From Candidatus Hydrogenedens sp. (GTDB lineage Bacteria > Hydrogenedentota > Hydrogenedentia > Hydrogenedentales > Hydrogenedentaceae): a stretch of DNA of 64,000 nucleotides. Made by a program: the position numbers and the translations under genes. The notes beneath the pieces are model-generated. The model was not told the origin of the DNA. It saw only the letters and a program-made list of their open reading frames with translations, and ran no database searches. The stretch lies in the NCBI GenBank assembly GCA_049968235.1, contig JBMFRC010000010.1, positions 39,468 through 103,467 of the forward strand, given 5' to 3'. Positions 3,047 to 45,084 of the stretch are shown piece by piece. The first letter of the stretch is position 1. The number at the start of each line of letters is the position of its first letter.

Positions 3047-3047
3047 C

Positions 3048-17944: not shown

Positions 17945-18028
17945 GGAGGGTTAGGATAATTGGTAATCCACCGGTCTTGAAAACCGGCGCCTTCGGGCTT
18001 GGGGGTTCGAGTCCCCCACCCTCCGCCA
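17945..18028 (+). tRNA. tRNA-Ser(UGA), type II with long variable arm, CCA encoded
   Basis: Acceptor GGAGGGT/ACCCTCC, discriminator G, encoded CCA. U8. D-stem GGAT/ATCC. Anticodon stem CCGGT/ACCGG with loop CTTGAAA (anticodon TGA). 13-nt variable arm forming GCC-TTCG-GGC. T-arm GGGGG-TTCGAGT-CCCCC. Confidence 0.85.
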
Positions 18029-18055
18029 TTTTTCTTAACATTTAGGAGGAATATT

Positions 18056-24495: not shown

Positions 24496-24823
24496 TTTTT
24501 ATAATCTTATATTTTTTAAGGTTAATAACAAATCCTGTCTTTTTTGAGTTTCTATCTAATTCCAGTGTTCCGCCATGTATGTCCATAATTGCTTTTGAAA
24601 GACTTAGCCCTAATCCCGTACCTTTTCCTACTTCTTTGGTAGTAAAAAATGGGTCAATGATTTTGTCTTGTATATCTTCTGGAATTCCATGACCATTATC
24701 TTCAATTTCAATTCTAATGTTGTTGTCAATTTCAATTACCTTTATTGAAATTTCTGGGTTTATTACTTCTTCAATTGCATCCGCTGAATTATTTAATATA
24801 TTTACAATTACCTGAGTTAACAA
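24485..24823 (-). CDS. histidine kinase HATPase_c (N/G1/G2 box) fragment, C-terminal part of the frameshifted sensor kinase
   Basis: NILNNSADAIEE (N box), DNGHGIP (G1), GKGTGLGLS (G2). Its frame continues upstream to ...KQNIEFTYQNNNREIYVEAVPAL, reaching into the end of the 809-aa ORF. Confidence 0.7.
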   Translation of the reverse strand: MLTQVIVNILNNSADAIEEVINPEISIKVIEIDNNIRIEIEDNGHGIPEDIQDKIIDPFFTTKEVGKGTGLGLSLSKAIMDIHGGTLELDRNSKKTGFVINLKKYKIIKNEK

Positions 24824-24891
24824 TGCCGGAACTGCCTCGACATATATCTCTCTGTTATTGTTCTGGTAGGTAAATTCTATATTTTGCTTTT

Positions 24892-27321
24892 CTATTCTCG
24901 TTTAATTTGTTCAATTGCCTCTTCAATAATCTTGTCTAATTTAGATGGATGCAATGTATGTTTTGTTTCCTGTCTCGAGAATACTTTTAATGCTTTGACT
25001 AAATTTTCTATTCTTGTTACATTTTTTTGTATTTTATTAATGAGCATAGGAATATTCTTGATAGAGGATTCATTTGTCTCATTTATATATTTACTTAAAT
25101 GTTGTGTGGTAAGCGAAATTACGGCTAATGGGTTATTAACTTCATGAGCAATACCACTTGCCATAATACCCAGTGAAGATAGTTTCTCTATGGCTTGTAT
25201 TTTTTTCTCCTGTTCTTTTATTAATTTTTCCTTTTGCTGTCTTTCGATAGATATGGCTATCATCTCCGCCACTATTTTTAATGCATGTAATTCAGAAGAT
25301 GACCATTGTCTCTCTTTAACACAATCATCAAAACCAATTAATCCCCACCATTCACCAAAAACAAAAATAGGCACAACCGCTATTGAAATAATATCTTGTG
25401 CTTCAAGTGTCGATTTTTCAATTTCTGGGAAATTTTTTACACATCCAAAAATAGGATGTCCATTGGATAACATTTGTACCCATCTTTTATAACCATTTTT
25501 TTCATAATTAAACGACTGTAATTCCGTATTATGAATTTGTGGTTTTATTTCCGGTGCAACCCATTCGTATAATTGGTCTGTTAGTATGGTGCCATTTTTT
25601 AAAACACTATTTTTAAATAGATAGGTTCTACTTACATTTGTTGCTTCCCCAAGGATTCTTAATACTTCATTAATTTCATCTTCCCAGTTTTTTGATGTAT
25701 ATAGGCTTGACGCACATTTGGATGCAGATTCTAATATTTTCTCTCTCATTTTTAAGTGTTCTTCCGACTGAACTCTTCTTACCATGTTCCCTACAGAATT
25801 GCAGAAAAAATAAATCTGATTGATTTCTTCATTATCAAACTTATTGTTAATTCTAAAAAACAATATTACATCTCTAATTAGATTTCTATCTTTAACGGGA
25901 ATATATGAAATAGATAGGGATAAATCTGTGTTATCTTTTTTATATATCGTTAAGTTTTCTGTAACAGGTATCGAAACTCTTTTTATATTTGGATTATTGA
26001 GGTATTCCATTTCTAATTTTTCAATTATCTCTTTTATTTCTTTATTGATATCTTCCTTATAAAAAGAGATTTTATGTCGTTCATTTATCTCTGTTTCATA
26101 TATACTTTTTCCAGCTTCGTCGCTAAATAATGTAACCGCACAGCAGCTTGTTAAATCGACAGCATTTTTTAAAAATTCAAACAATATTTCATCTGACGAC
26201 TTTTCTCTTTGTTTCGAAATATCCAATATCATTCGGGCATACAAATGTTCTCTTTCTAAAAATTTTTCTATTTTTTTCCGCTGTGTAACATCCTGCCCAA
26301 AACCAAATATATACTCTTTATCCCCTCCTATTTTAAGATATACTGACTTTATTTCTTTATGGACAAGGTGTCCATCTTTATGCTTATGTATGGTGTTAAA
26401 AGGACTATCATATCCATTTTTTAAATCATTGAAATGTTTACTAAAATTTTCTTTTGTATATAAAATATCAATTTCAGGGACACTTAACTTACGAAAAGTA
26501 GGCAAATCGTAGCCGAGACTTTTTGAAGCGGATTCATTTACATAAGCAAACTTTCCATCTGGATAAAGCAAATAGAATTCATTCCCAGCATTATCAACAA
26601 TATATTTAAATATTGTTAGATGTCCTTCTACCTCTTTTACAGATGTAATATCATAGAAAAATATATTGAATATATATCCACAATTGATTTTTAATTTATT
26701 TATATATAACTTTATCCACTTCTTGTTTCCTTTTTGGGTGGTTATAGGAAATGGATTTTCCAGTAGTTTATTTAGTTTTTTTTGGTTTGTATATAAATGA
26801 ATTTGCGGAAAGAAATCTTTTAATAGAAAATTTCTATTACTATTTTCAGGTATTTCTAAAAACTTTAAGGCTTTGTTATTAGCAAATAATATTTTCCCTT
26901 TCTCTACTAATAAATATCCTAAATCCGTTTGTGATGTTAAACTAAATAAAGTAGGTATGTATTGTTCTGTTTTCTTTTCTTCAGTAAGATATTTATTACA
27001 GAGTGGATAGATAAAGGCGAAATTCTGGTAAGTTTCTTTTTTGTCTTTATTATTAGGAAATGATATAAGATTATGTGTAATATGAAAATTATAAATGTTT
27101 CGTTTTTTTGTTTTTATTCTATATATAGTTACAGATTCGCCTAAATTCCCTATACCACTTTTATTTAATACATTTTGAAATAGGTTCAGGTCATTCCTAT
27201 GTATATTATCTATCCAGATATTAGGTGATATTTTATCCAGATTTAGGCAATCCTGAACGAAAGATTGAAATTCTTCATCGTAGCCTGCAATTTCTCCCTT
27301 TTGATTAAAGACAATAAACAT
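24892..27321 (-). CDS. multi-PAS/GAF sensor histidine kinase, N-terminal 809 aa ending just after the HisKA H-box (interrupted)
   Basis: PAS-like segments, H-box SSLGIMASGIAHEVNNPLAV; the ORF stops about 80 aa after the H-box, before any ATPase domain. Confidence 0.7.
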   Translation of the reverse strand: MFIVFNQKGEIAGYDEEFQSFVQDCLNLDKISPNIWIDNIHRNDLNLFQNVLNKSGIGNLGESVTIYRIKTKKRNIYNFHITHNLISFPNNKDKKETYQNFAFIYPLCNKYLTEEKKTEQYIPTLFSLTSQTDLGYLLVEKGKILFANNKALKFLEIPENSNRNFLLKDFFPQIHLYTNQKKLNKLLENPFPITTQKGNKKWIKLYINKLKINCGYIFNIFFYDITSVKEVEGHLTIFKYIVDNAGNEFYLLYPDGKFAYVNESASKSLGYDLPTFRKLSVPEIDILYTKENFSKHFNDLKNGYDSPFNTIHKHKDGHLVHKEIKSVYLKIGGDKEYIFGFGQDVTQRKKIEKFLEREHLYARMILDISKQREKSSDEILFEFLKNAVDLTSCCAVTLFSDEAGKSIYETEINERHKISFYKEDINKEIKEIIEKLEMEYLNNPNIKRVSIPVTENLTIYKKDNTDLSLSISYIPVKDRNLIRDVILFFRINNKFDNEEINQIYFFCNSVGNMVRRVQSEEHLKMREKILESASKCASSLYTSKNWEDEINEVLRILGEATNVSRTYLFKNSVLKNGTILTDQLYEWVAPEIKPQIHNTELQSFNYEKNGYKRWVQMLSNGHPIFGCVKNFPEIEKSTLEAQDIISIAVVPIFVFGEWWGLIGFDDCVKERQWSSSELHALKIVAEMIAISIERQQKEKLIKEQEKKIQAIEKLSSLGIMASGIAHEVNNPLAVISLTTQHLSKYINETNESSIKNIPMLINKIQKNVTRIENLVKALKVFSRQETKHTLHPSKLDKIIEEAIEQIKRE

Positions 27322-32521: not shown

Positions 32522-33019
32522 ATGGGAACAAAAGGTAGAGAAATCGTAAAAATGGATGTTGAACATCTATTACTTCTTTTAAATAAAGCCTATTCTGATG
32601 AATGGTTTGCTTATTATCAATATTGGTTAGGCGCAAAGGTCGCAAAAGGACCTATGAAAGAGGCAGTCATGGCAGAACTTTTGCAACATGCAGGAGATGA
32701 ACTCAGACATGCAGATATGGTAGCCCTGAGAATAATCCAATTAGGTGGTTCTCCCGTAGAAAGTCCGAAACAGTGGTATGAAATGTCTAATTGTAGTTAT
32801 GACCCACCATCTGACCCGTATGTTCGCGTTCTTCTGGAACAGAATATTAAAGGCGAACAGTGTGCTATACAAACTTATAATGCACTCCTTGCGGAAACTA
32901 AGGAGGGAGACCCCGTAACTTATAATATGGTTTTACAAATACTTCAAGATGAAGTTATGCACGAAGAAGACCTTCAAGCTCTGTTGGAAGATTTGGACTT
33001 GATGACATCAAGAGGTTAA
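32522..33019 (+). CDS. ferritin-like diiron protein (bacterioferritin/Dps-like fold)
   Basis: Ferritin-like helix pattern with E..H ligands (AELLQHAGDELRHAD; EVMHEED); 165 aa; good RBS AAAGGAG. Confidence 0.55.
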   Translation: MGTKGREIVKMDVEHLLLLLNKAYSDEWFAYYQYWLGAKVAKGPMKEAVMAELLQHAGDELRHADMVALRIIQLGGSPVESPKQWYEMSNCSYDPPSDPYVRVLLEQNIKGEQCAIQTYNALLAETKEGDPVTYNMVLQILQDEVMHEEDLQALLEDLDLMTSRG

Positions 33020-34500
33020 TAAAATATTTCTTTATTTAATAGCCCTCTCTGTTGAAAATCGATGAGATGGGCTTTTAATTGTTGTCGTGCTAGAATAAGG
33101 CGTTCTTGCGGGATGTCATCGTAGGATTTTATTAATAACTCTTCAAAAGAAGTAATACCACTATTTATATTTTGAAGTATCTTTTCTTCTCGTTGTTTGC
33201 GATGTTGGGTTAGTATGTCAATAATCAGATTTCCTGACATATTGAACCATGGGACACCATGACCGGGAATTAACAAATCAATTTTTAATTGATTTAACTT
33301 ATTTAATGAGTCCATATACTCGGACATTGACCCTTCCTCATCCGGGTCAATAACAACAGGTCCTTCTGAACTTATCATATCTCCAGCAATTAATGTTTGA
33401 GTTGTTGTTTCATAATAACAAAGATGTCCTTTTACATGGCCCGGAGTAGAAATAATATTTATTATCCACGGGAAATCCCTATCATTTAAGACAAACTGTT
33501 GCCCATCTCCTATTGTTTTATCGATAGGAATATTTCCTCTTTGGGCAGATTCAAAGGATGCGTATTTAGGTATATCAAAATGTTTTGATATTATATCTAT
33601 CCCTTTAGCGTGGTCTGAGTGTTCATGAGTTATACAAACCCCTACATACTTTGAGCCTGTCCTAATAAAATGTTCTAACCAATAAATCATTTCTTCAATA
33701 CTTTCTTCTTTCCCTTCTCCAGGGTCAATAATAATCATCTCTTTTTTCCCAATAACAATGGAATTCACATTTTTAAAAAATGTTTGTGGTGGTGCTGGTA
33801 ATGGAAATATATGTACACCTGCTCTTGGATGAAAATATGAATAACCATTATCCTTCCATGGAATTTTTTTTAGGTATTGATAGGCATTGGGAAAAGAAAA
33901 TGCTTCTATCTGCTCTAAAATAAATGCAACAGGTGTAGAAATAGATATTTCCTGCTTGTGCCAACGGTATAGAATGTTTTGAGGTGTATCCCATTCTATT
34001 AAATCAACTTCTTCATTCTTTTTACCTTCAATTACATAATATTCAGGTTTCCATTCGATAAAGAAAAAATAAGTTTCAAATCTTTGGGGTAAACCGGGTG
34101 GTGTAATCCACGGTCCAGAAAAAAAGTATTCGTCCAAATTTAATTTAAGATTAAATTTTTTTTGTACCTCTACAAAATTTATTTCTCTGTGATGGAACCG
34201 CTCCCATATTTCGTTTAACTCTTCATTAGAAATATTTTTCTTTATCTGTATAGGAAGATATCCTGTTTCCTCAAATGTTTCACGAATGGCTCCTACCAGA
34301 GCAGATTTAATTTTTTCACTATTAGAACCAAATACTTCACATTTCTTATCTTCTTCTTCGATACTACCACCGGGAAATGCGTGATGTCCCGGTAAAAAAG
34401 ATAATGTCTCTCCCCTTTTTATAACTAAAACTTCTATGTCTCGTTTATTTTTTCTCCAAACAACACAAACTCCTGCAAGTTTTATAGAATTAAAACTCAT
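33016..34500 (-). CDS. bifunctional-architecture protein: N-terminal NUDIX hydrolase + C-terminal MBL-fold metallo-hydrolase
   Basis: NUDIX box GAIRETFEETGYL (GX5EX7REUXEEXGU); MBL motif CITHEHSDHAKG (HxHxDH) plus downstream His. Confidence 0.65.
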   Translation of the reverse strand: MSFNSIKLAGVCVVWRKNKRDIEVLVIKRGETLSFLPGHHAFPGGSIEEEDKKCEVFGSNSEKIKSALVGAIRETFEETGYLPIQIKKNISNEELNEIWERFHHREINFVEVQKKFNLKLNLDEYFFSGPWITPPGLPQRFETYFFFIEWKPEYYVIEGKKNEEVDLIEWDTPQNILYRWHKQEISISTPVAFILEQIEAFSFPNAYQYLKKIPWKDNGYSYFHPRAGVHIFPLPAPPQTFFKNVNSIVIGKKEMIIIDPGEGKEESIEEMIYWLEHFIRTGSKYVGVCITHEHSDHAKGIDIISKHFDIPKYASFESAQRGNIPIDKTIGDGQQFVLNDRDFPWIINIISTPGHVKGHLCYYETTTQTLIAGDMISSEGPVVIDPDEEGSMSEYMDSLNKLNQLKIDLLIPGHGVPWFNMSGNLIIDILTQHRKQREEKILQNINSGITSFEELLIKSYDDIPQERLILARQQLKAHLIDFQQRGLLNKEIFY

Positions 34501-34588: not shown

Positions 34589-35767
34589 ATGTATATTTCA
34601 AAAAGGTTTGAAAATTATGAACTATCCGGTGGATTAAATCCAATTGCAGAGGCACATCGATACTATATTTCACAAGGGAAAGAACTCTTTGACTTAACCC
34701 TTTCAAATCCAACAAAAGCAAACTTTTTGTATCCCGAAACTGAAATATTACAAGCATTATCTAAAAGCCAATCTTTATTGTATGAACCTACTCCTAAAGG
34801 CTCTTACGAAGCAAGAGAAACCATATCTCTGTATTATTCTTCACTTGGTTTTTCTGTCTCTGTGGATGATATATTTCTAACATCAGGAACATCTGAAGGT
34901 TATTCCTATATTATTAAATTAATTTGTAATCCTGATGATGAAATATTAGTACCCGCTCCTTCCTATCCATTACTCGATTTTATTGCTTCTTTAGAATTGG
35001 TTAAAGTTGTTCCGTACCATTTTGAAGAACAAAATAATTCCTGGTTTCTCTCCACAAAGAATATCATCAATTCTGTAAATAATAAAACAAAACTTTTATT
35101 TCTTGTACAGCCGAATAATCCGATAGGGAATATACTTTCTCATGTAGAAATTCATGACTTACTTTCTTTCGCTGAAGAATATAATCTTGTAATAGTAGTT
35201 GATGAAGTTTTTCGGGACTACCTTTTTTCCAATGAATCGCCTCATTTATTTTCTTCATCCCAGATACCTATTTTTACTCTTAATGGCATTTCAAAAACTC
35301 TTGCATTACCTCAACTCAAATTAAGTTGGTTTGTCTGTTCCTGTCCTGAAAACAGGAAAAAGGAATTATACGAAGGTTTAGAAATAATTGCTGATACATA
35401 TCTTTCTGTCAATACACCGGTTCAAGTAGCATTAGCAGATTTATTCCAAATAAAAGATTCTATACAGATACAAATACAAAATAGAATATCCAATAATCTG
35501 AAGTACGCCATAACCCAATTTTCTAAATGTCCTTATATCACTTCTTATCCACCTCAGGGAGGTTGGTATCTTGTTATAAAAATTTCTAATACCATAGAAT
35601 CAGAAGAGAAATTAATTATTGATTTGCTAAATCAGACCGGTGTATATGTCCATCCGGGGGGTATGTTTCGTTTTCCTGATAATAATTTTTATATGATTTT
35701 AAGTTTACTGCCAGAAGAAAACATATTCCAGGAGGGTATTCAAAGAATTATTAAGTATTTTAGTTAA
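34589..35767 (+). CDS. PLP-dependent aminotransferase (class I/II fold)
   Basis: Aminotransferase-like blocks; NGISKTLALPQLKLSW fits the PLP-Lys region. ATG 34589 follows GAGGA; the ORF-track start at 34436 overlaps the upstream gene and is rejected. Confidence 0.5.
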   Translation: MYISKRFENYELSGGLNPIAEAHRYYISQGKELFDLTLSNPTKANFLYPETEILQALSKSQSLLYEPTPKGSYEARETISLYYSSLGFSVSVDDIFLTSGTSEGYSYIIKLICNPDDEILVPAPSYPLLDFIASLELVKVVPYHFEEQNNSWFLSTKNIINSVNNKTKLLFLVQPNNPIGNILSHVEIHDLLSFAEEYNLVIVVDEVFRDYLFSNESPHLFSSSQIPIFTLNGISKTLALPQLKLSWFVCSCPENRKKELYEGLEIIADTYLSVNTPVQVALADLFQIKDSIQIQIQNRISNNLKYAITQFSKCPYITSYPPQGGWYLVIKISNTIESEEKLIIDLLNQTGVYVHPGGMFRFPDNNFYMILSLLPEENIFQEGIQRIIKYFS

Positions 35768-35774: not shown

Positions 35775-37622
35775 TTATTTAGGTACAGGGAAAAATGTTG
35801 ACATAGCAAATTCTTCTTCAAATTCCGGGATAGTAGATAAGTCAATATGTTTAATATGCCTTGATATTTCTTTGATATTATCCCTCAATTCTTTGTTTAT
35901 TAAAGCGTATTTTGCCCCTGCCAAACTACTATTGCCAATAAAATCTATTTTTGAATCAACAATTTCTTTTGGAATAATTCCAATCGTTTTCAAATTTTCT
36001 TTGTTCAGATGAAAACCAAATGTCCCTGCAATATATATTTTGTCTATTGCTGAAAGTCCTATTCCGGCTTTTTTTGTTAACAGTTTTATTCCACATTTTA
36101 TAGCGGAACATGATAATTGTAATTGTCTTACATCACGGGCTGAAAGGAATACTTTTTTGTCTTTATTATGAAATACTTTAAAAATGACATTCGAATTATA
36201 CGTTTCTACTCTTTTACGAATTTTTTCGGGGATATTCATGTTATTTGTTAATTCTGATAACATTCTTCCTGTGGTATCAATAACCTTCATCTTTAACAGG
36301 ATTGCTAACAAATCTATCAAAGCACTTCCACACATTCCTATGGGTTCTATATTCCCAATTACCTTTATATCTATATCATCATCCTTAAATATTATTCTTT
36401 CTATTGCACCGATAGATGCTCTCATACCACACTCTATCCGTACACCTTCAAAGGCAGGACCTACTGCAGTGGATGTTGCCCATAGATTTCTTTTGTTAGA
36501 TACAACAATTTCACCATTTGTGCCTAAATCAACAAAAATAAATGAATTCTCTTCTTTTAAGGCATTTATAGCCAGTAAACCAGCGGAAATATCTCCTCCG
36601 ACAAAACCTCCAATTGCAGGGTAAATATACATTTTTGCTTCCGGATGTGTATGTATGCCTATTTCTTTTGTTGGTAGCGTAAGACTACTTATAAAAGTTG
36701 GCATAAAGGGATATTCGCCAAGTGATGAAGGGTCTAAATCTAACAACAAATGTATCATTGTTGTATTTCCTGCAATTACAACATCGTAAATATCATTTTG
36801 ATTTATTCCTGCTTTCTCTATCAATTGCGCAATAAGGTTATTAATCCCCGATACAACACTTTTTTGCATTAATTTTTTATTATCTTCGGATTGTATGGCA
36901 TACGATATCCTACTTATAACATCATCACCATATAATATTTGTGGATTCAGTTCTGATATATCTCCATGAATTTTTCCAGATACTAAATTTATAAGTTCTA
37001 CTGCAATGGAAGTTGTTCCTAAATCTACCGCAATACCATATAAACCATTATATTCTTCTTCTCTTTTTATATCTAATATCTGATTTTCAGTGTATATTAA
37101 AATATAAGATTTTTTTATATCTTTTTTAATATGTGCTATTTTTTTTAATATCTGGACAGAAACATATTTCTCACCGATGAGATTAAAAATATAATCCAGA
37201 TATGACTTTGACTTTTTTATTTCTTCTTCGATATGTAATTTTATTACATGAATAAGGGGGTTGACCTTTGTTTCAATTTTTATCTGGTAGGGTTTCCTGT
37301 ATCTATATATTTCTTTTTGTTTATCTATATGTATTTGCGGTAAATAAACAATAATGTCTGTTTCTAAAATGAATTGACATGAATTAACACGCAAACGCGA
37401 TTTTCCTCCCTCTAACTCTTGACTTCGTTTTTCTATATATTCTATTTCCACTAAACATTTTCCGCATATTCCTCTTCTACCACATGAGGAGGGAACAATA
37501 TATCCATGTTCATATAAGGCATCTATTAAAATACTTCCTTTTTTTACTCTTATTTCTTTATTTGTTGGCATAATTTTTATTAATATATCACCCAAAATAG
37601 ATTCCTTTCTTGTTATTCTCAA
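35775..37622 (-). CDS. RACo-like protein: N-terminal plant-type [2Fe-2S] ferredoxin + ASKHA (DUF4445-like) ATPase domain
   Basis: Cys pattern CGRRGICGKC...C (CX4CX2C...C); ASKHA phosphate motifs GIAVDLGTTSIAV and IFVDLGTNGEIVV; 615 aa as in reductive activators of corrinoid proteins. Confidence 0.6.
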   Translation of the reverse strand: MRITRKESILGDILIKIMPTNKEIRVKKGSILIDALYEHGYIVPSSCGRRGICGKCLVEIEYIEKRSQELEGGKSRLRVNSCQFILETDIIVYLPQIHIDKQKEIYRYRKPYQIKIETKVNPLIHVIKLHIEEEIKKSKSYLDYIFNLIGEKYVSVQILKKIAHIKKDIKKSYILIYTENQILDIKREEEYNGLYGIAVDLGTTSIAVELINLVSGKIHGDISELNPQILYGDDVISRISYAIQSEDNKKLMQKSVVSGINNLIAQLIEKAGINQNDIYDVVIAGNTTMIHLLLDLDPSSLGEYPFMPTFISSLTLPTKEIGIHTHPEAKMYIYPAIGGFVGGDISAGLLAINALKEENSFIFVDLGTNGEIVVSNKRNLWATSTAVGPAFEGVRIECGMRASIGAIERIIFKDDDIDIKVIGNIEPIGMCGSALIDLLAILLKMKVIDTTGRMLSELTNNMNIPEKIRKRVETYNSNVIFKVFHNKDKKVFLSARDVRQLQLSCSAIKCGIKLLTKKAGIGLSAIDKIYIAGTFGFHLNKENLKTIGIIPKEIVDSKIDFIGNSSLAGAKYALINKELRDNIKEISRHIKHIDLSTIPEFEEEFAMSTFFPVPK

Positions 37623-37691
37623 CTTCTCACATTTTATATGATATTATAATGAAAAACCATTGGAATTCTTATAGTTTGGAATTATATTTAT

Positions 37692-38849
37692 ATGAAAGGT
37701 TTTTGGTATTTTTTGCCTGCACAATTCAGGTCTATTATATCCGCGTGGATAAATGCTCCTGTTTTTCCGACCATTTTACAAATAGAACCTACAAATCGTT
37801 GTAACCTGAAGTGTATTATGTGTCCTCATGGTTGTAATAAAATTTCCGAATACAATGATTTATCTTTTCCTATATTAACAAAGATTATAGAGGATATATT
37901 TGAATATAAATACTTAAAGGGTGTTCATATTCAAGGATTAGGAGAACCGCTTTTATATCCTGATTTGCTCAACGCCATAAGGTTTTGTAAAGAAAAAAAT
38001 TTAGAGACTTATTTTAATTCAAATTTGACAATAATGTCAGAGGAAATAGCGGAAAAACTGGTTGAATTTCAACACGACAAAATTGCAGTTTCCATTGAAT
38101 CGGTCAATCCAGAATTATATTTGTGGATACGCCCCGGTTCAAAAAATCATTCTCTTCATAGGGTATTGAATAATATAAATATTCTTGCTAAAACAAAGAA
38201 GAAAAAGAATTCTCGATATCCAGTTATTGCAGTCCATTCTATATTATTCAAAAGTATGATAGACCAAATACCGGATATGGTCCACACTTTAAAGGAAACA
38301 GGAGCAAATATGTTGTGTTTTCAACACTTAATTACAATTGGTATTCCTGATGATAAAATACTTCCCGATGGCAAACCTATCAAAGATGAGTGTGTCCAGA
38401 ATCTTTCCATTGCTGAAAAAAAAGAAATATTACAATTAATTCGTTCATTAAATTCAGTAGATTTTGAAGTTATTCCTCCACATGATTTTGATTTTTTTGA
38501 TGAAGTGTTACCACCTCATGAAGGAATACTTACATGTTTCGATTTGTGGGAAAAACCTACAATATTAGCAAATGGTGATTTTATGCCCTGTTGTTATACG
38601 CTCGGCTATCATCAGTTTTTAATGGGAAATATTTATGATACAGATTTTAAATCTATCTGGTTTAATGATAAATATAAGGACCTTCGATGGCAACATGTTA
38701 GTGGCAACTTAAATCCTGTTTGTGCTAATTGTAGTCAGTTGTATCAGGTAACACACCCTTCTTCAAAATTATTTTTCGAAGGTAAAGTAGAAAAATTTCA
38801 TTTTTATCCTAATACATTTCTGGGAACTCAAAAATATTCTTTTTACTGA
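37692..38849 (+). CDS. radical SAM protein with Cys-rich C-terminal (SPASM/twitch-like) extension
   Basis: CNLKCIMC (CX3CX2C), GLGEPLL SAM-binding motif; C-terminal cysteines (CFDLW, PCCY, CANCSQ). Confidence 0.65.
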   Translation: MKGFWYFLPAQFRSIISAWINAPVFPTILQIEPTNRCNLKCIMCPHGCNKISEYNDLSFPILTKIIEDIFEYKYLKGVHIQGLGEPLLYPDLLNAIRFCKEKNLETYFNSNLTIMSEEIAEKLVEFQHDKIAVSIESVNPELYLWIRPGSKNHSLHRVLNNINILAKTKKKKNSRYPVIAVHSILFKSMIDQIPDMVHTLKETGANMLCFQHLITIGIPDDKILPDGKPIKDECVQNLSIAEKKEILQLIRSLNSVDFEVIPPHDFDFFDEVLPPHEGILTCFDLWEKPTILANGDFMPCCYTLGYHQFLMGNIYDTDFKSIWFNDKYKDLRWQHVSGNLNPVCANCSQLYQVTHPSSKLFFEGKVEKFHFYPNTFLGTQKYSFY

Positions 38850-38858: not shown

Positions 38859-39959
38859 ATGCATATATGTCATATATATAAAGATGTGTTTCCTCCTATA
38901 GTGGGAGGAATAGAAAAGTTTATCTTTCAGTCTATTCAAGAACAAAAACAATGGGCAAAAATCACGGTCATCATTTGTAGTCGAAATATTCATTCCTTTA
39001 TGGAGACAAAAGGTGGAGTAGATTTTATCTATGTAGGTGAATGGGGTCGTCTTCTGAGCACTCCCATTTCTCCCCTATTCCCTTTTTATATTAAAAGTAT
39101 CAAACCCGATTTGTTTGTTGTTCACACACCCAATCCTCTTGGTGAGTTATCTGTTTTAATAACACAAAGGAAAATACCATATGTAGTTCGTTATCACAGT
39201 GATGTTGTCCGGCAAAAAATTGCTATGAAATTTTATGCCCCTTTCTTTTATAATTTTTTAAAGAAAGCGAAACTTATCATACCAACGAGTGATATTTACG
39301 CAAATAATTCACCTTTTCTGCGTTCTTTTTTGGATAAATGCAGAACGGTTCCTTTAGGTATTGATTTTCATCGTTTTTTACAATCTAATACGGAAAGAGT
39401 AAAAGCGATACAAATGAAGTATGGAACACCTTTTGTGTTTTTTTGTGGTGTTCATCGTTATTATAAAGGTATTCATATTTTGTTAAAATGTTCCCCATAT
39501 ATAAAAGTTCCTATTGTAATAGCAGGTGATGGTCCTGAAAGGAAACATCTCGAAGAAATGGCAAAGAGTACCGATAAGAAAAATATTTATTTTGTTGGTA
39601 AACTGACAGATGAAGATCTGGTCCAATATTTGCATGCATGTTCCATTTTTGTTTTTCCTTCTATAGCGAGAAGTGAAGCATTTGGTTTGTCAATTATTGA
39701 GGCTCATTCTGCGGGAAAGCCTGTAGTAGCAACAAAACTTGGAACAGGCGTTGAATGGGCTAATCTTGATGGAATAACAGGCATTAATGTGCCCCCAAAT
39801 AATGAACATGCCTTAGCACAGGCTATCCAGTTCCTGTTAGATAATGAGGACATCAGAGAAGCCATGGGGAAAACTGCTAAGGAACGAGTTCAATCTGAAT
39901 TTGACATAAAAGTAACTGCTCCTAAAGAGTTCGATTTATATCGGAGTGTAATTGGTTGA
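38859..39959 (+). CDS. glycosyltransferase family 4
   Basis: GT4 C-terminal EX7E region (SEAFGLSIIEAHSAGKPVVAT); starts 10 nt after the radical SAM stop. Confidence 0.7.
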   Translation: MHICHIYKDVFPPIVGGIEKFIFQSIQEQKQWAKITVIICSRNIHSFMETKGGVDFIYVGEWGRLLSTPISPLFPFYIKSIKPDLFVVHTPNPLGELSVLITQRKIPYVVRYHSDVVRQKIAMKFYAPFFYNFLKKAKLIIPTSDIYANNSPFLRSFLDKCRTVPLGIDFHRFLQSNTERVKAIQMKYGTPFVFFCGVHRYYKGIHILLKCSPYIKVPIVIAGDGPERKHLEEMAKSTDKKNIYFVGKLTDEDLVQYLHACSIFVFPSIARSEAFGLSIIEAHSAGKPVVATKLGTGVEWANLDGITGINVPPNNEHALAQAIQFLLDNEDIREAMGKTAKERVQSEFDIKVTAPKEFDLYRSVIG

Positions 39960-41053
39960 TGGATATATTTTCTTTTATTTATGCTTTTGCTATATTTGTA
40001 TCGTTTATATTGTCTATTTTTTTAACAGAATTGTTTCGTCAGTTCGCAATTGCTCATAACATATTAGACCATCCTCATGGGAGGAAAACACATAAACAAT
40101 CTACTCCTTTATTAGGAGGAGTGGGAATATTTTTAACATTTCATATTACGCTCTTAATAATTTTTTTGATATATCTTTTTTCATCCGATTTCAGAGAAGC
40201 CTTACCCGGAAGTTCTATTTTTAATTTTTTGGGTCTGGGTTCTTTCCAAAAAGTTATAGGTATTTTATTGGGAGGAATTATTATTTTCTTTCTAGGACTT
40301 GTTGATGATATGACAGTTCTCAGCCCATGGATAAAATTGACAGGACAAGTCATATCTGCATTTATTTTGGCATGTTCAGGTATAAGAATAGAAATGTTCT
40401 ATTTTTCTAATTGGATTTTATCCTATTTCATAACTATTATCTGGATTGTCTTATTAACAAACTCCTTAAATTTACTGGATAATATGGATGGTCTTTGTGC
40501 AGGTATATCTTTTATTTGTGCCATTTCTTTCTTTTTCTGTATTCAACCTTATGATGAATTTTTAATAAGACTCTTGTTAATGATTTTTGCGGGTAGCGTT
40601 GCGGGCTTTTTATTTCATAACCTTAATCCTGCCAAAATATTTATGGGTGATGCGGGCAGTATGTTTTGTGGATTTTTCCTTTCTACAATCAGTGTGTTAG
40701 GAACATTTCATCTTGAAGGAACACCCTCGAGAGTTGCTATTTTAGCACCTGTAGTTATTTTAAGTGTGCCTTTATTTGATACTTTCAGTGTAATATATCT
40801 TCGATGGAAAAATAACAAACCTATCATGCTGGGAGATAAAAGACATTTTTCACATCGCCTTGTAGAATTGGGAATGACTCAGCGACAGGCTGTAGAATTC
40901 ATCTGGCTGGTAGGAACTATTTCCGGTATCAGTGCTCTTTTTCTTCCAATGTTAGGTTTTAATTTTAGCGTTTTAATTATACTTCAGGTATTAGGTATAT
41001 ATATTCTAATTGTATTGTTAATGAATGCTCCCAAAAGTACCAATAGTAAGTAG
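39956..41053 (+). CDS. WecA/MraY-family polyprenyl-phosphate N-acetylhexosamine-1-phosphate transferase
   Basis: Signature NSLNLLDNMDGLCAG; 10-11 TM helices; ATGA overlap with the upstream GT4. Confidence 0.75.
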   Translation: MMDIFSFIYAFAIFVSFILSIFLTELFRQFAIAHNILDHPHGRKTHKQSTPLLGGVGIFLTFHITLLIIFLIYLFSSDFREALPGSSIFNFLGLGSFQKVIGILLGGIIIFFLGLVDDMTVLSPWIKLTGQVISAFILACSGIRIEMFYFSNWILSYFITIIWIVLLTNSLNLLDNMDGLCAGISFICAISFFFCIQPYDEFLIRLLLMIFAGSVAGFLFHNLNPAKIFMGDAGSMFCGFFLSTISVLGTFHLEGTPSRVAILAPVVILSVPLFDTFSVIYLRWKNNKPIMLGDKRHFSHRLVELGMTQRQAVEFIWLVGTISGISALFLPMLGFNFSVLIILQVLGIYILIVLLMNAPKSTNSK

Positions 41054-41073
41054 TTATAGAAATTAGGTTTGAT

Positions 41074-43974
41074 ATGAAAAAAAATAAAAAATTTTCTAAA
41101 AAGGTTAATCAAGAAGAAAGTCAAAAACTATTTTTTCTTTTCCAAAATAGTTTGGAATTTAATGAAAAAATTCTTGATATCCCTGTTTTATATTTTTTTA
41201 TTACCTTTTTCCTTACTTCCCTACTATCAGTTACAATTTTATTACTCGCTTATTTCAATTTATTAGATGGTTTGAAACCCTGGTTTTTGTCCCATTTTGA
41301 TGTATTAAATTTTACCAGATATTCCAGAGGAAATACAGATATTGGAATCGTGCTGGCAAGCCTTGTATCTGTTGCGGGTCTTTCTATAATTCATCCAATT
41401 TTCGGGATATGTGGTATCACATTGATTAGATGCTGGCTTGATGGTTACACTTATCCAACGGATAATACATATTTTGTCTGGACAATTATTTTTGTTTCGT
41501 TATCTTATATTATTAGAACATTTTTACAGAAACAAAAAATTAGGTTTGATATTCATACTATTTCATTACTCTTATTTGCATCTATCCTTATTCTAGTACT
41601 ACCTATTTCCTGGCAGATTGGAAAAAGTTATCGTTATCTTATTCTCTGGGCATCTTATGCTTTACTATTCCTATCCGCATACGGAAGTATAAAAACAAGT
41701 TCACAAAAAAATATCCTTACCTGGGTAATTTTGTTAACTCTTGGATTACAAACATGGTATGCATTTTTCCATTTCCAATACGTTTTGCCTTTTTTAAGGA
41801 AAAGTCTTTTAATGGACCCAGCGCTACGAATTAAATTTTTTGGAACAGCGGAACTTTCTAAGGAACTTATTTACCGTTTTAATATAAATCGTGCCTTTGG
41901 AACAATGCTATTTCCGAATGCTTTGGGTGGTTTTATTATTCTACTTTTGCCTTCTGTTTTTTATTGGACTATCTATCATTTATATGTGTTATACAACGAA
42001 TGGCAAAATCCCAAAAAGGAACTCATTAAAAAGAAACAGGAACGCGGAGTTTTAATACAAACGGCTATTATCTGGTTCGTTTCGACAATAATTATCTATA
42101 CAACAGAACTTTTCCCCTTAACATACACCTTTGAAGAGAGTTCTAATATTGATGTTTATCTAACGGCTGGTTTTGCAGGATTAATGAGTTTAATTCCCTC
42201 AGGAATATTTGCATGGATATGTTTTAAAAAAGGATATAAAACGGGAAAATATTTTGTTTTTACTCTTATTTTTTCATTATGTTCATTCTTTTCCTTAATA
42301 TCTCTATGGTTGACTTATTCAAGAGGTTCATGGTTAAGCCTTTTCCTTTCCATTTCTCTGTTGTCTATTCTTTTTATCTACTTTCGGTTTATTAACAAGC
42401 AAAAGAAACAAATTCTGCCATCTATAATTTTTATTTTTTTAGTAGTTATTTGTCTTATAACTATCACTGTATTGGGAAATATTGCATTTGCAGAAAATAC
42501 AGAACAGGTTTCAACAAATAACGAAACTCTTTCTAATATGAAGAACACCAACAACAATTTGAGTAATGAGAACAAAGCAGCAGAAGAAATAATGGAAAGT
42601 GGGGTGGGCGTGTCATGGGAGCATTTAAGTGACCCTTCATCTTTTCGGTTACGTTGGAGTTATTGGAAGGTAGGCTTAAATATGTGGTTTCATAACCTTT
42701 TTACAGGTGTGGGTTTAGGGAATTTTGCTCTTGCATATCCTCACTACCAGTATTTAGGTGCTGGTGATGTTAAAGAATGTCATAATGGCTACCTTCAGAT
42801 ACTTTGTGAAACAGGTATTTTAGGAGGAATTTTCTTTTTGTTTTTCATAATAACCATTCTTTATAAAATAGGAAAAAGCATAAAAGAAAATAGAAATTAT
42901 TACAGTATTGCATGGAGTATTGGGATTCTTGCATTTCTTATACATGCAGGTTTAGATATACATTTCTCCCACCCTTCTCTTGTAACATATTTCCTTATTG
43001 CACTGGCATTATTCTTAAATGAAATGAAACGAGAAGAATCAAATGAACAGTGGGACACAGAAGAAAAGGTAAAATTTTATCTTACGCCGTTATTTCTTGT
43101 GTTATTTTGTATTGTTATTTTTGCTTCTTCTCTATTTCCCTACACAAGAGACCTTGTACGTAGTAGAATGTCTTTTCTGAATGTTGGTAAAGATACAGAA
43201 ATTCCACTTGTTCTAAAGTCTATTAATTACGTTTTTACAGATGTATTTGAATATGCCATGAAAAAATCTGATAAACAACCCAAAATGTCGGCTACAATTT
43301 TGAAATTTTTCTTTGTTGATTTAAATAAACTTCGAATGTTTGGGAATTTATATGTACCGGAAGGGAATGGTAGTAATAAAGCGACTATACTTCCTGAGGG
43401 AAATCCTGTTCCTGATAATGCGGTTTTATTAGTTAAAGAACCATGGCTCCTAATTAATAGAATTCGTAATTCCAGTCTTCATTATGCGGAATATTTAAAA
43501 CAAATTGATAAAATTTTTCCATACCAGGAAGATATACCTAATTATCTTAATGAAATATATAAATTAATATTTTTATATTCTCCTTATGAAACTCATAGCG
43601 AAATTGTAAATAATTCTCGTGAAGAAATGCTTCATTGGGCAAAAGAAGCCATTCGTCGAAGCCCATACAATGGTGACCTTTATTATAATTACGGAAAATC
43701 ACTCTGGTTCTCGGCAACAAAAGATTGTGCAAACCCGGATGAGAGAAATAAGTATATTAAAATTGCTATTGAAAATTTTGAAAAGTGTGCTTTGCAATGG
43801 AAAAATATACCTTTCTATTGGGATGAATATATAGCACACATGAAAGATGCTGTTGGTTTCTTTGAAAGTAATAATCAGATAGAAGAGAAAAATAAGATAC
43901 TGGAGAAGATAGAAGAAGCAAGCCGATATGTAAAGATACTCAAGGAAGAAAGGGCAAAATTAAACCTGTGGTAA
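41074..43974 (+). CDS. large polytopic membrane protein with O-antigen ligase/Wzy_C-like core and C-terminal ~300-aa soluble TPR-like domain
   Basis: More than 12 TM helices; Wzy_C-like loop ...HNGYLQILCETGILGG...; helical repeat-rich C-terminus; 966 aa. Confidence 0.55.
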   Translation: MKKNKKFSKKVNQEESQKLFFLFQNSLEFNEKILDIPVLYFFITFFLTSLLSVTILLLAYFNLLDGLKPWFLSHFDVLNFTRYSRGNTDIGIVLASLVSVAGLSIIHPIFGICGITLIRCWLDGYTYPTDNTYFVWTIIFVSLSYIIRTFLQKQKIRFDIHTISLLLFASILILVLPISWQIGKSYRYLILWASYALLFLSAYGSIKTSSQKNILTWVILLTLGLQTWYAFFHFQYVLPFLRKSLLMDPALRIKFFGTAELSKELIYRFNINRAFGTMLFPNALGGFIILLLPSVFYWTIYHLYVLYNEWQNPKKELIKKKQERGVLIQTAIIWFVSTIIIYTTELFPLTYTFEESSNIDVYLTAGFAGLMSLIPSGIFAWICFKKGYKTGKYFVFTLIFSLCSFFSLISLWLTYSRGSWLSLFLSISLLSILFIYFRFINKQKKQILPSIIFIFLVVICLITITVLGNIAFAENTEQVSTNNETLSNMKNTNNNLSNENKAAEEIMESGVGVSWEHLSDPSSFRLRWSYWKVGLNMWFHNLFTGVGLGNFALAYPHYQYLGAGDVKECHNGYLQILCETGILGGIFFLFFIITILYKIGKSIKENRNYYSIAWSIGILAFLIHAGLDIHFSHPSLVTYFLIALALFLNEMKREESNEQWDTEEKVKFYLTPLFLVLFCIVIFASSLFPYTRDLVRSRMSFLNVGKDTEIPLVLKSINYVFTDVFEYAMKKSDKQPKMSATILKFFFVDLNKLRMFGNLYVPEGNGSNKATILPEGNPVPDNAVLLVKEPWLLINRIRNSSLHYAEYLKQIDKIFPYQEDIPNYLNEIYKLIFLYSPYETHSEIVNNSREEMLHWAKEAIRRSPYNGDLYYNYGKSLWFSATKDCANPDERNKYIKIAIENFEKCALQWKNIPFYWDEYIAHMKDAVGFFESNNQIEEKNKILEKIEEASRYVKILKEERAKLNLW

Positions 43975-43992
43975 AATTCAGGATTTTGAATA

Positions 43993-45084
43993 ATGAGTAG
44001 TATTCCTACGCAACAAAAACGAATTAATTTAATACGTGACATAATAAAGAAATATGAATGCGATGCTTTTTTAAGTTTTTGTCCTATTGATAATAGATAC
44101 TTATCAGGCTTCTCAGGTTCTACTTCTGTTGTTTTAATTACTCGTGAAAATTGTTTTTTCCTTTCTGATTTTCGTTATAAAGAACAAACTAGTAATGAAG
44201 TCTTTAATTTTTCCATTTCAATTGTTTCTGGCAATCTTGATAACAAACTCTTAAATATTGTTAAATCAAACAAAATAAAAAAAATCGCTGTAAATACCGA
44301 AAAGATAAGTTTGAGACTATCAGAAGATTTGAGAAAAAAAGGTAGATTTGAACTTATAGATGCAAGAGAAGAACTTTCACAATTGCGCATTTTGAAAGAC
44401 ACCAATGAAATAGATAACATTCGACAGGCGTGCAAAATTACGGAAATGTCCGTGTTTCATTGTACTTCTTTTCTTAAAGAAGGGGTTACAGAGAGAGAAA
44501 TTTCTGCAAGAATTGATTATGAATTTCGAATCAATGGTGCTGATGGTTCTGCTTTTGATACTATCGTTTTATTTGGAAAGAATTCATCTCTACCCCATGG
44601 TAAACCCGGTGATAAAAAACTTTCTATTGGGGATATCGTGTTAATTGATTGTGGGTGTCTTTATAAAGGTTATTGTTCTGATTTAACCCGAACATTTGTA
44701 TATGGAGCCATTCCAGGAACATGGTTTACAGAGATATATGAAACGGTCTTATCTGCACAAATAAATGCCTTAAAGGCTCTGACGCCCGAAAAGAAAACAA
44801 ATGAAATAGACCATATTGCTCGCAGGTATATATCAGGAAAAGGCATGGGAACATATTTTGGGCATGGATTAGGGCATGGTGTTGGCATGGAGATTCATGA
44901 ACCTCCACGATTGAATACAGATAGTTCAACTACATTAAAAGAAGGTTTTGTGATTACAATCGAACCCGGTATATATATCCCTGGTAAAGGTGGAGTTCGG
45001 ATAGAGGATACAGTTTTAATTACAAAAGATGGATATGAACGATTAACCACATCGGATAAGTACTTAAAAGTTCTTCCTCTTTAA
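43993..45084 (+). CDS. M24-family Xaa-Pro aminopeptidase/dipeptidase
   Basis: HGLGHGVGMEIHEPP M24 signature and pita-bread metal ligands (D...D...H...E...E). Confidence 0.75.
   Translation: MSSIPTQQKRINLIRDIIKKYECDAFLSFCPIDNRYLSGFSGSTSVVLITRENCFFLSDFRYKEQTSNEVFNFSISIVSGNLDNKLLNIVKSNKIKKIAVNTEKISLRLSEDLRKKGRFELIDAREELSQLRILKDTNEIDNIRQACKITEMSVFHCTSFLKEGVTEREISARIDYEFRINGADGSAFDTIVLFGKNSSLPHGKPGDKKLSIGDIVLIDCGCLYKGYCSDLTRTFVYGAIPGTWFTEIYETVLSAQINALKALTPEKKTNEIDHIARRYISGKGMGTYFGHGLGHGVGMEIHEPPRLNTDSSTTLKEGFVITIEPGIYIPGKGGVRIEDTVLITKDGYERLTTSDKYLKVLPL

What the first reader, a model, noticed from the sequence alone, without database searches (positions are those of the whole stretch)
35775..37622. 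RACo-like reductive-activator architecture with no corrinoid protein in the neighbourhood
The N-terminal plant-type [2Fe-2S] ferredoxin (CX4CX2C…C) fused to an ASKHA ATPase domain is the architecture of reductive activators of corrinoid proteins. The window contains no corrinoid/B12-binding protein and no methyltransferase of the usual client type. The nearest redox-cofactor enzyme is the divergent radical SAM. The client of this activator is therefore open; it may act on a radical SAM or another Fe-S enzyme.
Basis: inference. Interest (0 to 1): 0.5.

Follow-up and report, generated by a model that had tools for sequence, protein, structure and literature searches.

The report
Stand-alone corrinoid reductive activator gene
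This is an ordinary, intact member of the large family of ATP-driven enzymes that re-reduce vitamin-B12-type cofactors, encoded away from its client as about four in ten sampled relatives are, so the missing neighbour is not evidence for a new kind of client.

Summary
ORF 35775-37622 (-) encodes a 615-aa protein with a plant-type [2Fe-2S] ferredoxin domain, a RACo middle domain and a RACo ASKHA domain. It matches the RACo crystal structure (3ZYY) at E 2.5e-95, and its AlphaFold model matches RACo at TM 0.82-0.86. All four Cys ligands and the ATPase motifs are invariant. No corrinoid protein, client-type methyltransferase or cobalamin riboswitch occurs in the 64 kb.

The inference does not follow. 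In a sample of 37 family loci with at least 5 kb on both sides, 16 lacked a nearby corrinoid gene. Published fitness genetics shows that unlinked ferredoxin+DUF4445 proteins reactivate B12 for methionine synthases that lack their own reactivation domain.

The adjacent radical SAM/SPASM gene is divergent and heads a glycosyltransferase/O-antigen-ligase operon. Its adjacency sits inside a conserved block in Candidatus Hydrogenedentes relatives.

The best reading is a stand-alone RACE-type activator whose corrinoid client, most likely MetH, is encoded elsewhere. I could not test that client assignment. A different ~310-aa radical SAM family recurs beside orphan RACo-like genes in related lineages. 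That keeps a low-probability non-corrinoid reading open.

The parts
35775..37622 (-). Gene for a 615-aa RACE-type (RACo/Ram family) reductive activator, apparently monocistronic
   Evidence: ORF. Pfam gives Fer2, Raco_middle and RACo_C_ter. PDB 3ZYY matches at E 2.5e-95. The fold matches RACo at TM 0.82-0.86. The closest relatives, at 76-41% identity, are from Candidatus Hydrogenedentes/Hydrogenedens MAGs.
37335..37583 (-). N-terminal plant-type [2Fe-2S] ferredoxin domain (residues ~14-96); cluster ligands C47, C53, C56, C82
   Evidence: Pfam Fer2 covers residues 16-85. The four Cys are invariant in 16- and 39-sequence alignments that include RACo. The region is modelled as a beta-grasp with pLDDT 72-91, apart from the loop at 66-73.
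37041..37334 (-). Linker region (residues ~97-194), divergent in sequence
   Evidence: Pfam RACo_linker (PF17650) was not detected at E<=0.1. The segment still aligns with RACo residues ~108-200 and is modelled as an alpha/beta unit with pLDDT 76-94. The shorter relatives P0032, P0046 and P0059 lack it entirely.
36564..37040 (-). RACo middle domain (residues 195-353), carrying the first ASKHA phosphate motif D200-x-G-T-T
   Evidence: Pfam Raco_middle at E 7e-58. D200, G202, T203, G285 and N286 are invariant.
35787..36542 (-). C-terminal ASKHA ATPase domain (residues 361-612)
   Evidence: Pfam RACo_C_ter at E 1e-71. Invariant motifs are D365-x-G-T-N-G-E371, G388-P-A-F-E-G393, C431-G-S433, A532-G-x-F-G536 and G563-N564. 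The column of RACo Ser398, the Co(II) ligand (PMC4934906), is Ala here within S-T-A-V-G-P-A-F-E-G. Corrinoid-linked homologues P0041 and P0116 show the same substitution.
37623..37691 (.). 69-bp AT-rich divergent intergenic region between the RACo-like gene and the radical SAM/SPASM gene
   Evidence: Sequence. Promoter-like matches are no more frequent than in shuffled sequence. This is context only, and no shared regulation was shown.
37692..38849 (+). Context, not shown to be linked: radical SAM/SPASM gene (385 aa, C37-x3-C41-x2-C44), first gene of a GT1/GT4/Wzy_C/M24 operon (38859-45084)
   Evidence: Pfam Radical_SAM plus SPASM, with no B12-binding domain. No NCBIfam model reaches its cut-off; the best is the W-cofactor maturase model at 129 bits against a cut-off of 380. 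Downstream genes are spaced by 10, -4, 21 and 19 bp on the same strand.
34589..35767 (+). Context: class I/II aminotransferase, convergent with the RACo-like gene (3' ends 7 bp apart)
   Evidence: Pfam Aminotran_1_2. NCBIfam tyrosine/alanine aminotransferase-like models score below cut-off. Homologues are 390-397 aa, so the likely start is M52 of the listed ORF.

Best explanation
The gene encodes a functional RACE-type metallo-ATPase, the family of RACo, AcsV, RamA, RamQ and the O-demethylase activating enzymes. By analogy with RACo, the N-terminal [2Fe-2S] domain accepts one electron from a cellular donor. The middle and ASKHA domains dock onto a corrinoid protein whose cobalt has been oxidised to inactive Co(II). 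ATP binding and hydrolysis then make the uphill transfer from [2Fe-2S] to Co(II) possible and restore the Co(I) nucleophile. The gene is a stand-alone repair function, so its client is encoded elsewhere in the Hydrogenedentes genome. The most likely client is a cobalamin-dependent methionine synthase that lacks the C-terminal reactivation domain (PF02965). Shown here: the architecture, the fold, the intact metal and ATP motifs, conservation across the lineage, the absence of a client in 64 kb, and the commonness of unlinked family members. Inferred: corrinoid reduction as the activity (about 0.8) and MetH as the client (about 0.4, untested).
For: The domain architecture and scores are. The model matches RACo structures 3ZYY and 4C1N about 40 orders of magnitude better than any other ASKHA protein. 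C47, C53, C56, C82 and all ASKHA phosphate and adenosine motifs are invariant from Hydrogenedentes to RACo, and homologues at 76, 65, 57, 52 and 41% identity keep them. The family is very large, with 5,609 clusters at 50% identity scoring E<=1e-30. Distant members sit in classical corrinoid operons: B12-binding with MTHFR, Pterin_bind and URO-D, and B12-binding with MttB. Unlinked members are common: of 37 GTDB-species loci with at least 5 kb on both sides, 21 have a B12-binding, MttB or pterin-binding ORF within 5 kb and 16 do not. The relatives that score best against the window protein are such orphans, from Phycisphaerae, Kiritimatiellia, Planctomycetota and Hydrogenedentota. The 144 genes flanking 43 orphan loci fall into 185 Pfam families with none dominant. 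From the literature, unlinked ferredoxin+DUF4445 proteins (PGA1_c15200, Dde_2711, DvMF_1398) are cofit with MetH and are needed for methionine synthesis where MetH lacks PF02965 (PMC5764234). RACE-type ATPases are described only as corrinoid reducers (PMC7317905).
Against: No corrinoid protein of this organism was seen, and I could not search the rest of the genome, so even the organism's use of B12 is unverified; the window has no cobalamin riboswitch. The protein falls below the curated cut-offs of both named subfamilies: AcsV 399 bits against 800, and RamA 129 bits against 500. All relatives outside the lineage are about equally distant at 31-37% identity, so no orthology to a characterised activator can be claimed. 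The Co(II)-ligating Ser398 of RACo aligns with Ala. None of the RACo-family loci sampled lies next to a MetH-like gene. That is expected if MetH-serving members are unlinked, but it gives no positive support. Orphan relatives are recurrently adjacent to a ~310-aa radical SAM.
Confidence: 0.7

Rival explanations
1. The activity is the same (ATP-driven Co(II) to Co(I) reduction), but the client is a corrinoid protein other than MetH, encoded elsewhere. Candidates are an MtaC/MttC-type methyltransferase system, a type-1 mlp cluster, CoFeSP of a Wood-Ljungdahl pathway, or HgcA.
For: Family members at 34-36% identity lie in B12-binding/MttB and B12-binding/pterin-MT/URO-D operons. A crude NJ tree places the window clade beside MttB-linked activators. 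An HgcA has been reported from a Hydrogenedentes MAG (PMC12953829), and a RACo homologue has been proposed as its activator (10.1101/510180). mlp clusters often include methionine aminotransferases (PMC10418091), and an aminotransferase lies next to this gene.
Against: Activators of dedicated methyltransferase systems are usually co-located with them (PMC10418091), and here nothing of the kind occurs within 26-35 kb on either side. The NJ placement sits on a long branch and disagrees with the BLAST ranking. The HgcA-activation hypothesis was not confirmed experimentally.
Confidence: 0.2
2. The activator delivers an ATP-energised low-potential electron to a non-corrinoid acceptor, such as the [4Fe-4S] cluster of a radical SAM enzyme, either the neighbouring SPASM protein or another one.
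For: A radical SAM/SPASM gene lies 69 bp away and divergent in all Hydrogenedens-type loci. This core arrangement is kept in L173 even though the outer flanks have changed. Separately, a different ~310-aa radical SAM family (35-52% identical among copies) lies beside orphan RACo-like genes on the same strand in at least four separate lineages: L008/L009, L014 (Hydrogenedentota), L017 and L023 (Lentisphaerota), with L115 at 5 kb. By my rough estimate that is far more than chance for a single-copy gene.
Against: The window's radical SAM is not homologous to that family beyond the generic core (24% identity). It is on the opposite strand and heads a glycan-assembly operon. The whole 20-kb block is syntenic, so adjacency carries little information. 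Seen from the radical SAM side the pairing is the exception: among the 80 best metagenome loci, only L091-L095 (68-78% identical to the L008 protein, so probably its own lineage), where sequence extends downstream, have a RACo-like gene next to it, and L115 has one about 5 kb away. Its usual neighbours are an MBL-fold protein, a NifU-ParA/NUBPL Fe-S carrier and a Thi4-like protein. No RACE-type ATPase is known to reduce an Fe-S enzyme; that role belongs to archerase-type ASKHA proteins with a bridging [4Fe-4S] cluster, and Pfam found no match to that family.
Confidence: 0.07
3. The gene is an evolutionary relic with no current function.
For: No client is visible, and the protein lies on a long branch relative to all other family members.
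Against: The 615-codon frame is intact. All cluster ligands and ATPase motifs are invariant. The gene is retained in relatives down to 41% identity.
Confidence: 0.03

Closest known systems
RACo of Carboxydothermus hydrogenoformans (PDB 3ZYY; complex with CoFeSP 4C1N)
   Same: It shares the four-part layout of [2Fe-2S] ferredoxin, linker, middle and ASKHA domains. Identity is 33% over ~600 residues (E 2.5e-95), the fold TM is 0.82-0.86, and the Cys ligands and ATPase motifs are identical.
   Different: It is not next to CODH/ACS or CoFeSP genes. The linker domain is too divergent for Pfam to detect. The Co-ligating Ser398 aligns with Ala. The score is half the NCBIfam AcsV cut-off.
RamA-like ferredoxin+DUF4445 proteins needed for MetH function (PGA1_c15200 of Phaeobacter inhibens; Dde_2711 and DvMF_1398 of Desulfovibrio)
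   Same: They have the same domain composition and are encoded away from the client. The proposed role is B12 reactivation for a methionine synthase lacking PF02965 (PMC5764234).
   Different: Whether this organism's MetH lacks PF02965 is also unknown.
RamA of Methanosarcina (TIGR04270) and bacterial RamQ / O-demethylase activating enzymes
   Same: The ASKHA core is homologous (TIGR04270 matches residues 195-606 at E 2e-37), and the chemistry is the same.
   Different: On my own knowledge, RamA carries C-terminal [4Fe-4S] ferredoxin motifs, whereas this protein has an N-terminal [2Fe-2S] domain; Pfam found only Fer2-type domains here. The score of 129 bits is below the 500-bit cut-off. Those activators are normally clustered with their methyltransferase systems.
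Archerase-type activators (HgdC, BcrAD, DCCP-R)
   Same: They are also ASKHA ATPases that energise one electron with ATP (PMC7317905). This is the known solution for Fe-S clients.
   Different: They form a different ASKHA subfamily with a [4Fe-4S] cluster. The window protein gave no Pfam match to that family.

Membership tests
RACE-type reductive activators of corrinoid enzymes (RACo/Ram family; Pfam PF17651+PF14574, formerly DUF4445) | RACo middle domain plus RACo-type ASKHA C-terminal domain | tested here: met
   PF17651 at E 7e-58 and PF14574 at E 1e-71, both far above the gathering scores.
RACE-type reductive activators of corrinoid enzymes (RACo/Ram family; Pfam PF17651+PF14574, formerly DUF4445) | Fe-S electron-donor domain; in the bacterial type, an N-terminal plant-type [2Fe-2S] domain with four Cys | tested here: met
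   Fer2 scores 33 bits against a cut-off of 21. C47, C53, C56 and C82 are invariant in alignments A1 and A4.
RACE-type reductive activators of corrinoid enzymes (RACo/Ram family; Pfam PF17651+PF14574, formerly DUF4445) | Intact ASKHA nucleotide-binding motifs | tested here: met
   DxGTT (200-204), GN (285-286), DxGTNGE (365-371) and AGxFG (532-536) are invariant or nearly so.
RACE-type reductive activators of corrinoid enzymes (RACo/Ram family; Pfam PF17651+PF14574, formerly DUF4445) | Three-dimensional fold of RACo | tested here: met
   The AF2 model (pLDDT 87.8) matches 3ZYY_Y at TM 0.86 and 4C1N_K at TM 0.82, with E 1e-45 to 1e-50. The next-best ASKHA proteins are at E ~1e-7.
RACE-type reductive activators of corrinoid enzymes (RACo/Ram family; Pfam PF17651+PF14574, formerly DUF4445) | RACo linker domain (PF17650) | tested here: inconclusive
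   Pfam did not report it at E<=0.1. A segment of similar length aligns to RACo and is confidently modelled. Bona fide relatives vary, and some lack the linker.
RACE-type reductive activators of corrinoid enzymes (RACo/Ram family; Pfam PF17651+PF14574, formerly DUF4445) | Serine that ligates Co(II) in the complex (RACo Ser398) | tested here: not met
   The aligned column is Ala, within S-T-A-V-GPAFEG, with Ser and Thr two and one positions upstream. Homologues that sit in corrinoid operons (P0041, P0116) also have Ala there, so the residue does not define the family as a whole.
RACE-type reductive activators of corrinoid enzymes (RACo/Ram family; Pfam PF17651+PF14574, formerly DUF4445) | ATP-dependent reduction of a protein-bound Co(II) corrinoid | not testable with these tools
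   This is a biochemical property.
AcsV / RACo sensu stricto (NCBIfam NF040756, activator of CoFeSP) | Score above the curated cut-off and genomic association with CoFeSP/ACS genes | tested here: not met
   The score is 399 bits against a cut-off of 800. No CdhD, AcsE or CODH domain occurs in 64 kb.
RamA (TIGR04270, methylamine corrinoid protein activase) | Score above the curated cut-off | tested here: not met
   The score is 128.7 bits against a cut-off of 500, and the match covers the ASKHA core only. Pfam finds no Fer4-type domain.
MetH-reactivating RamA-like proteins (Price et al. 2018) | Ferredoxin+DUF4445 protein encoded apart from the client | tested here: met
   the definition comes from PMC5764234.
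MetH-reactivating RamA-like proteins (Price et al. 2018) | [quoted passage not shown] | not testable with these tools
   Only this window and 10-kb flanks of homologues could be read. No Hydrogenedentes MetH could be retrieved.
Archerase-type ASKHA activators of Fe-S enzymes (HgdC/BcrAD family) | BcrAD_BadFG-type ASKHA domain | tested here: not met
   No such Pfam hit was found. The donor domain here is [2Fe-2S].

The most novel reading that the evidence does not exclude
The orphan RACE-type ATPases of Hydrogenedentota and PVC-group bacteria, including this one, may not repair corrinoid proteins. They may instead act as ATP-driven low-potential reductases for a non-corrinoid partner such as a radical SAM [4Fe-4S] cluster. 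That would explain why two unrelated radical SAM families turn up beside them: the SPASM type here, and a ~310-aa TYW1-like type in L008, L014, L017 and L023.
Probability: 0.07. Interest if true: 0.8.

Novelty: new member of a known kind. Interest (0 to 1): 0.25.

Why it matters
As it stands, the result is a correct annotation for a poorly studied candidate phylum. NCBI names its closest relatives only 'ASKHA domain-containing protein', whereas this gene is a RACE-type corrinoid reductive activator. It predicts that these Hydrogenedentes depend on a Co(I)-cycling B12 enzyme, probably MetH without its own reactivation module. More generally, in this sample more than 40% of family members are encoded away from any corrinoid gene, especially in Planctomycetota, Phycisphaerae, Kiritimatiellia, Lentisphaerota and Hydrogenedentota. 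Absence of a neighbouring client should therefore not be read as a sign of new chemistry. Only if the low-probability radical SAM link proved real would this become a new class of ATP-driven electron delivery.

Tried and rejected
1. An exact-sequence look-up of the window protein found nothing on record, so the source contig could not be extended.
2. I tried to learn whether Hydrogenedentes have MetH or another corrinoid enzyme. Paper searches gave nothing usable for the Hydrogenedens lineage: there were no hits for Hydrogenedentes plus methionine synthase, 'Abyssubacteria' have Wood-Ljungdahl genes but are a different lineage, and one paper reports a Hydrogenedentes HgcA. The sequence tools cannot be aimed at one organism's genome, so this stayed untested.
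4. I tested whether the MBL-fold, radical SAM and T2SSE-adjacent genes near the closest short relatives (L008/L009) are orthologues of the window's NUDIX-MBL, radical SAM/SPASM and 302-aa genes. They are not.
5. A 935-aa gene downstream of the Hydrogenedentota RACo-like gene in L014 looked like a possible short MetH. It is a PAS histidine kinase.
6. A weak B12-cap-like HMM hit (E 0.003) to the zinc-ribbon ORF at 63147-63575 lacks DxHxxG and was rejected as spurious.
7. The NJ tree of 91 sequences was too poorly resolved at depth to place the window clade, and the BLAST ranking disagrees with it.
8. Promoter and terminator scans around the gene were no better than shuffled controls.
Full report
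**The observation**

The ORF at 35775-37622 on the minus strand encodes 615 residues from a TTG start. Pfam finds a 2Fe-2S ferredoxin domain (residues 16-85), the RACo middle domain (195-353, E 7e-58) and the RACo C-terminal ASKHA domain (361-612, E 1e-71). Against PDB sequences the best match is RACo of Carboxydothermus hydrogenoformans (3ZYY), at E 2.5e-95 over residues 15-612. BLAST identity to RACo is 33%.

An AlphaFold2 model built on 39 homologues (pLDDT 87.8, pTM 0.85) matches the RACo chains 3ZYY and 4C1N at E 1e-45 to 1e-50 and target-normalised TM 0.82-0.86. Sugar kinases and Hsp70 follow only at E about 1e-7.

The cluster ligands C47, C53, C56 and C82 are invariant. So are the ASKHA motifs DxGTT (200-204), GN (285-286), DxGTNGE (365-371), GPAFEG (388-393), CGS (431-433), AGxFG (532-536) and GN (563-564). 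This holds in alignments that span the window protein, its relatives and RACo itself.

**The rest of the window**

I scanned essentially every ORF of at least 110 aa with Pfam. There is no B12-binding domain or cap, no CoFeSP subunit, and no pterin-binding, MttB, URO-D or MtrH methyltransferase. No ORF of at least 70 aa has the DxHxxG...SxL...GG signature. Rfam finds one tRNA and no cobalamin riboswitch.

The window carries housekeeping and envelope genes. These include a bacillithiol cluster, a peptide ABC transporter, a rhamnosidase, an RND efflux pump and TsaD.

**Organism and local context**

The closest proteins, at 76-41% identity, come from metagenome bins named Candidatus Hydrogenedens or Hydrogenedentes. 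Identity then drops to 37% or less.

In six relatives the gene sits in the same arrangement:
- A radical SAM/SPASM gene lies divergent, about 70-100 bp away.
- That gene is followed on its own strand by GT1, a GT4/WecA-like transferase, a 966-aa Wzy_C protein and, in most loci, an M24 peptidase.
- On the other side lie a convergent class I/II aminotransferase, then a NUDIX-MBL fusion, ferritin, a phosphoesterase and a rhamnosidase.

Because the whole block of 20 kb or more is syntenic down to 41% identity, adjacency alone says little. In L173 (57% identity) the outer flanks have changed, but the core is kept: the radical SAM operon, the RACo-like gene, the aminotransferase and NUDIX-MBL.

The radical SAM protein has no B12-binding domain, and no NCBIfam model reaches its cut-off. 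Its tight spacing with the glycosyltransferases (10, -4, 21 and 19 bp) ties it to glycan assembly. The RACo-like gene itself appears monocistronic.

**How unusual is an unlinked activator?**

The family is huge, with 5,609 clusters at 50% identity scoring E<=1e-30. Distant members at 34-36% identity sit in textbook corrinoid operons. One locus has B12-binding with MTHFR, a pterin-binding methyltransferase and URO-D. Another has B12-binding with MttB.

I fetched 80 family loci from GTDB species genomes. I then searched their ORFs with HMMs grown from B12-binding, MttB and pterin-binding seeds. Of 37 loci with at least 5 kb on both sides, 21 have such an ORF within 5 kb and 16 do not. A few of the 16 probably have CoFeSP or URO-D neighbours that my seeds missed, because Pfam of the neighbours found 3 CdhD and 3 URO-D matches.

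The orphans come largely (though not only) from Planctomycetota, Phycisphaerae, Kiritimatiellia, Lentisphaerota, Hydrogenedentota and similar lineages, and the best-scoring relatives of the window protein are of this kind. The 144 genes flanking 43 orphan loci fall into 185 Pfam families with none dominant. An activator without a client next door is therefore common in this family.

**What the literature says**

RACE-type ASKHA ATPases reduce Co(II) to Co(I) in corrinoid proteins at the expense of ATP, with a flexibly linked [2Fe-2S] domain as the donor. Fe-S clients are served by a different ASKHA class, the archerases, which carry a [4Fe-4S] cluster (PMC7317905).

Price et al. showed by fitness genetics that ferredoxin+DUF4445 proteins encoded apart from methionine synthase are required for methionine synthesis. 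The proteins are PGA1_c15200, Dde_2711 and DvMF_1398. They are cofit with a MetH that lacks the PF02965 reactivation domain, with r of 0.90-0.92 (PMC5764234). This is a direct precedent for a stand-alone activator.

Activators of dedicated methyltransferase systems, in contrast, are usually co-located with those systems (PMC10418091).

RACo Ser398 ligates Co(II) in the complex (PMC4934906). In my alignment that column is Ala in the window protein, but it is also Ala in homologues that sit in corrinoid operons. It therefore does not discriminate.

**Best explanation**

The protein is a functional stand-alone RACE-type activator. Its client is a corrinoid protein encoded elsewhere, most plausibly MetH without its own reactivation domain.

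Architecture, fold, motifs, conservation and the commonness of unlinked members are shown. The activity (about 0.8) and the identity of the client (about 0.4 for MetH) are inferred.

None of the sampled family loci is adjacent to a MetH-like gene. That fits the unlinked pattern but is not positive evidence.

The protein is not a member of the curated AcsV subfamily (399 bits against a cut-off of 800) or the RamA subfamily (129 bits against 500). It lies on a long branch roughly equidistant from all outside relatives, and a crude NJ tree could not place it.

**The radical SAM idea**

For the window's own neighbour the evidence is against a link. It is on the opposite strand, belongs to a glycan operon and sits within block-wide synteny.

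One thing turned up that keeps the idea alive at low probability. In the closest short relatives (L008/L009) and in L014 (Hydrogenedentota), L017 and L023 (Lentisphaerota), a different radical SAM lies on the same strand close to the orphan RACo-like gene: 7-363 bp away in four of these loci and 1.9 kb away in L023. It is ~310 aa and TYW1/COG0731-like, with no SPASM or B12 domain, and the copies are 35-52% identical to one another. That is far more recurrence than chance adjacency of two single-copy genes would give.

It is unrelated to the window's SPASM enzyme beyond the generic core (24% identity). Seen from its own side the pairing is the exception. Among its 80 best metagenome loci, only L091-L095 (68-78% identical to the L008 protein, so probably its own lineage), where sequence extends downstream, have a RACo-like gene beside it, and L115 has one about 5 kb away. 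Its usual neighbours are an MBL-fold protein, a NifU-ParA/NUBPL Fe-S carrier, a Thi4-like protein and flavin reductases, and never a B12 or pterin gene.

I record this as an unexplained side observation and not as support for the window's gene acting on a radical SAM.

**Verdict**

This is a new member of a known kind and of low to moderate interest. The decisive step is a whole-genome domain scan of a Hydrogenedens-type genome for corrinoid proteins and for the domain make-up of MetH.

Noticed in passing
L008:9062-9994 (+) with L008:10001-11572; also L009, L014:1-588, L017:2692-3615, L023:6914-7855, L091-L095, L115: A ~310-aa radical SAM family recurs on the same strand next to orphan RACo-like genes in at least four separate lineages, often with a ~280-aa MBL-fold gene. 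Its N-terminus reads FGPVPSRRLGRSLG...CxxxCxxC, it is TYW1/COG0731-like, and its C-terminus is winged-helix-like. Elsewhere its usual neighbours are MBL-fold, NifU-ParA/NUBPL, Thi4-like, FMN-reductase and PNPOx-like genes. Its function and its link to the activator are unexplained.
   Followed up: partly
window 24485-27321 (-): The PAS-GAF-HisKA histidine kinase is split into two ORFs: 24892-27321 (809 aa, lacking the ATPase domain) and 24485-24823 (112 aa, HATPase_c only). In relatives L001, L002 and L171 it is one gene of 936-944 aa. This points to a frameshift or stop, meaning either a pseudogene or an assembly error.
   Followed up: no
window 810-4196 (+): An apparent bacillithiol biosynthesis cluster is present: BshC-like (810-2342), PIG-L/BshB-like deacetylase (2339-3046) and GT4/BshA-like glycosyltransferase (3048-4196). 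This suggests the Hydrogenedentes organism makes bacillithiol or a related thiol.
   Followed up: no
window 33016-34500 (-): A 494-aa fusion of an N-terminal NUDIX domain and a C-terminal metallo-beta-lactamase domain is conserved beside the aminotransferase and RACo-like genes in all Hydrogenedens-type loci. Its function is unknown.
   Followed up: no
window 41074-43974 (+): An unusually large (966 aa) Wzy_C/O-antigen-ligase-like membrane protein lies downstream of the radical SAM/SPASM, GT1 and GT4/WecA-like genes. A radical SAM heading a glycan-assembly operon may deserve its own look.
   Followed up: no
window 17945-18025 (+): A tRNA gene (Rfam, 62 bits) overlaps the TTG start listed for ORF 17999-19030, so that ORF's real start must lie further downstream.
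   Followed up: no
window 63147-63575 (-): A 142-aa double zinc-ribbon protein gave a marginal hit (E 0.003) to my home-made B12-binding/cap HMM. It has no DxHxxG motif, and I judged the hit spurious.
   Followed up: yes
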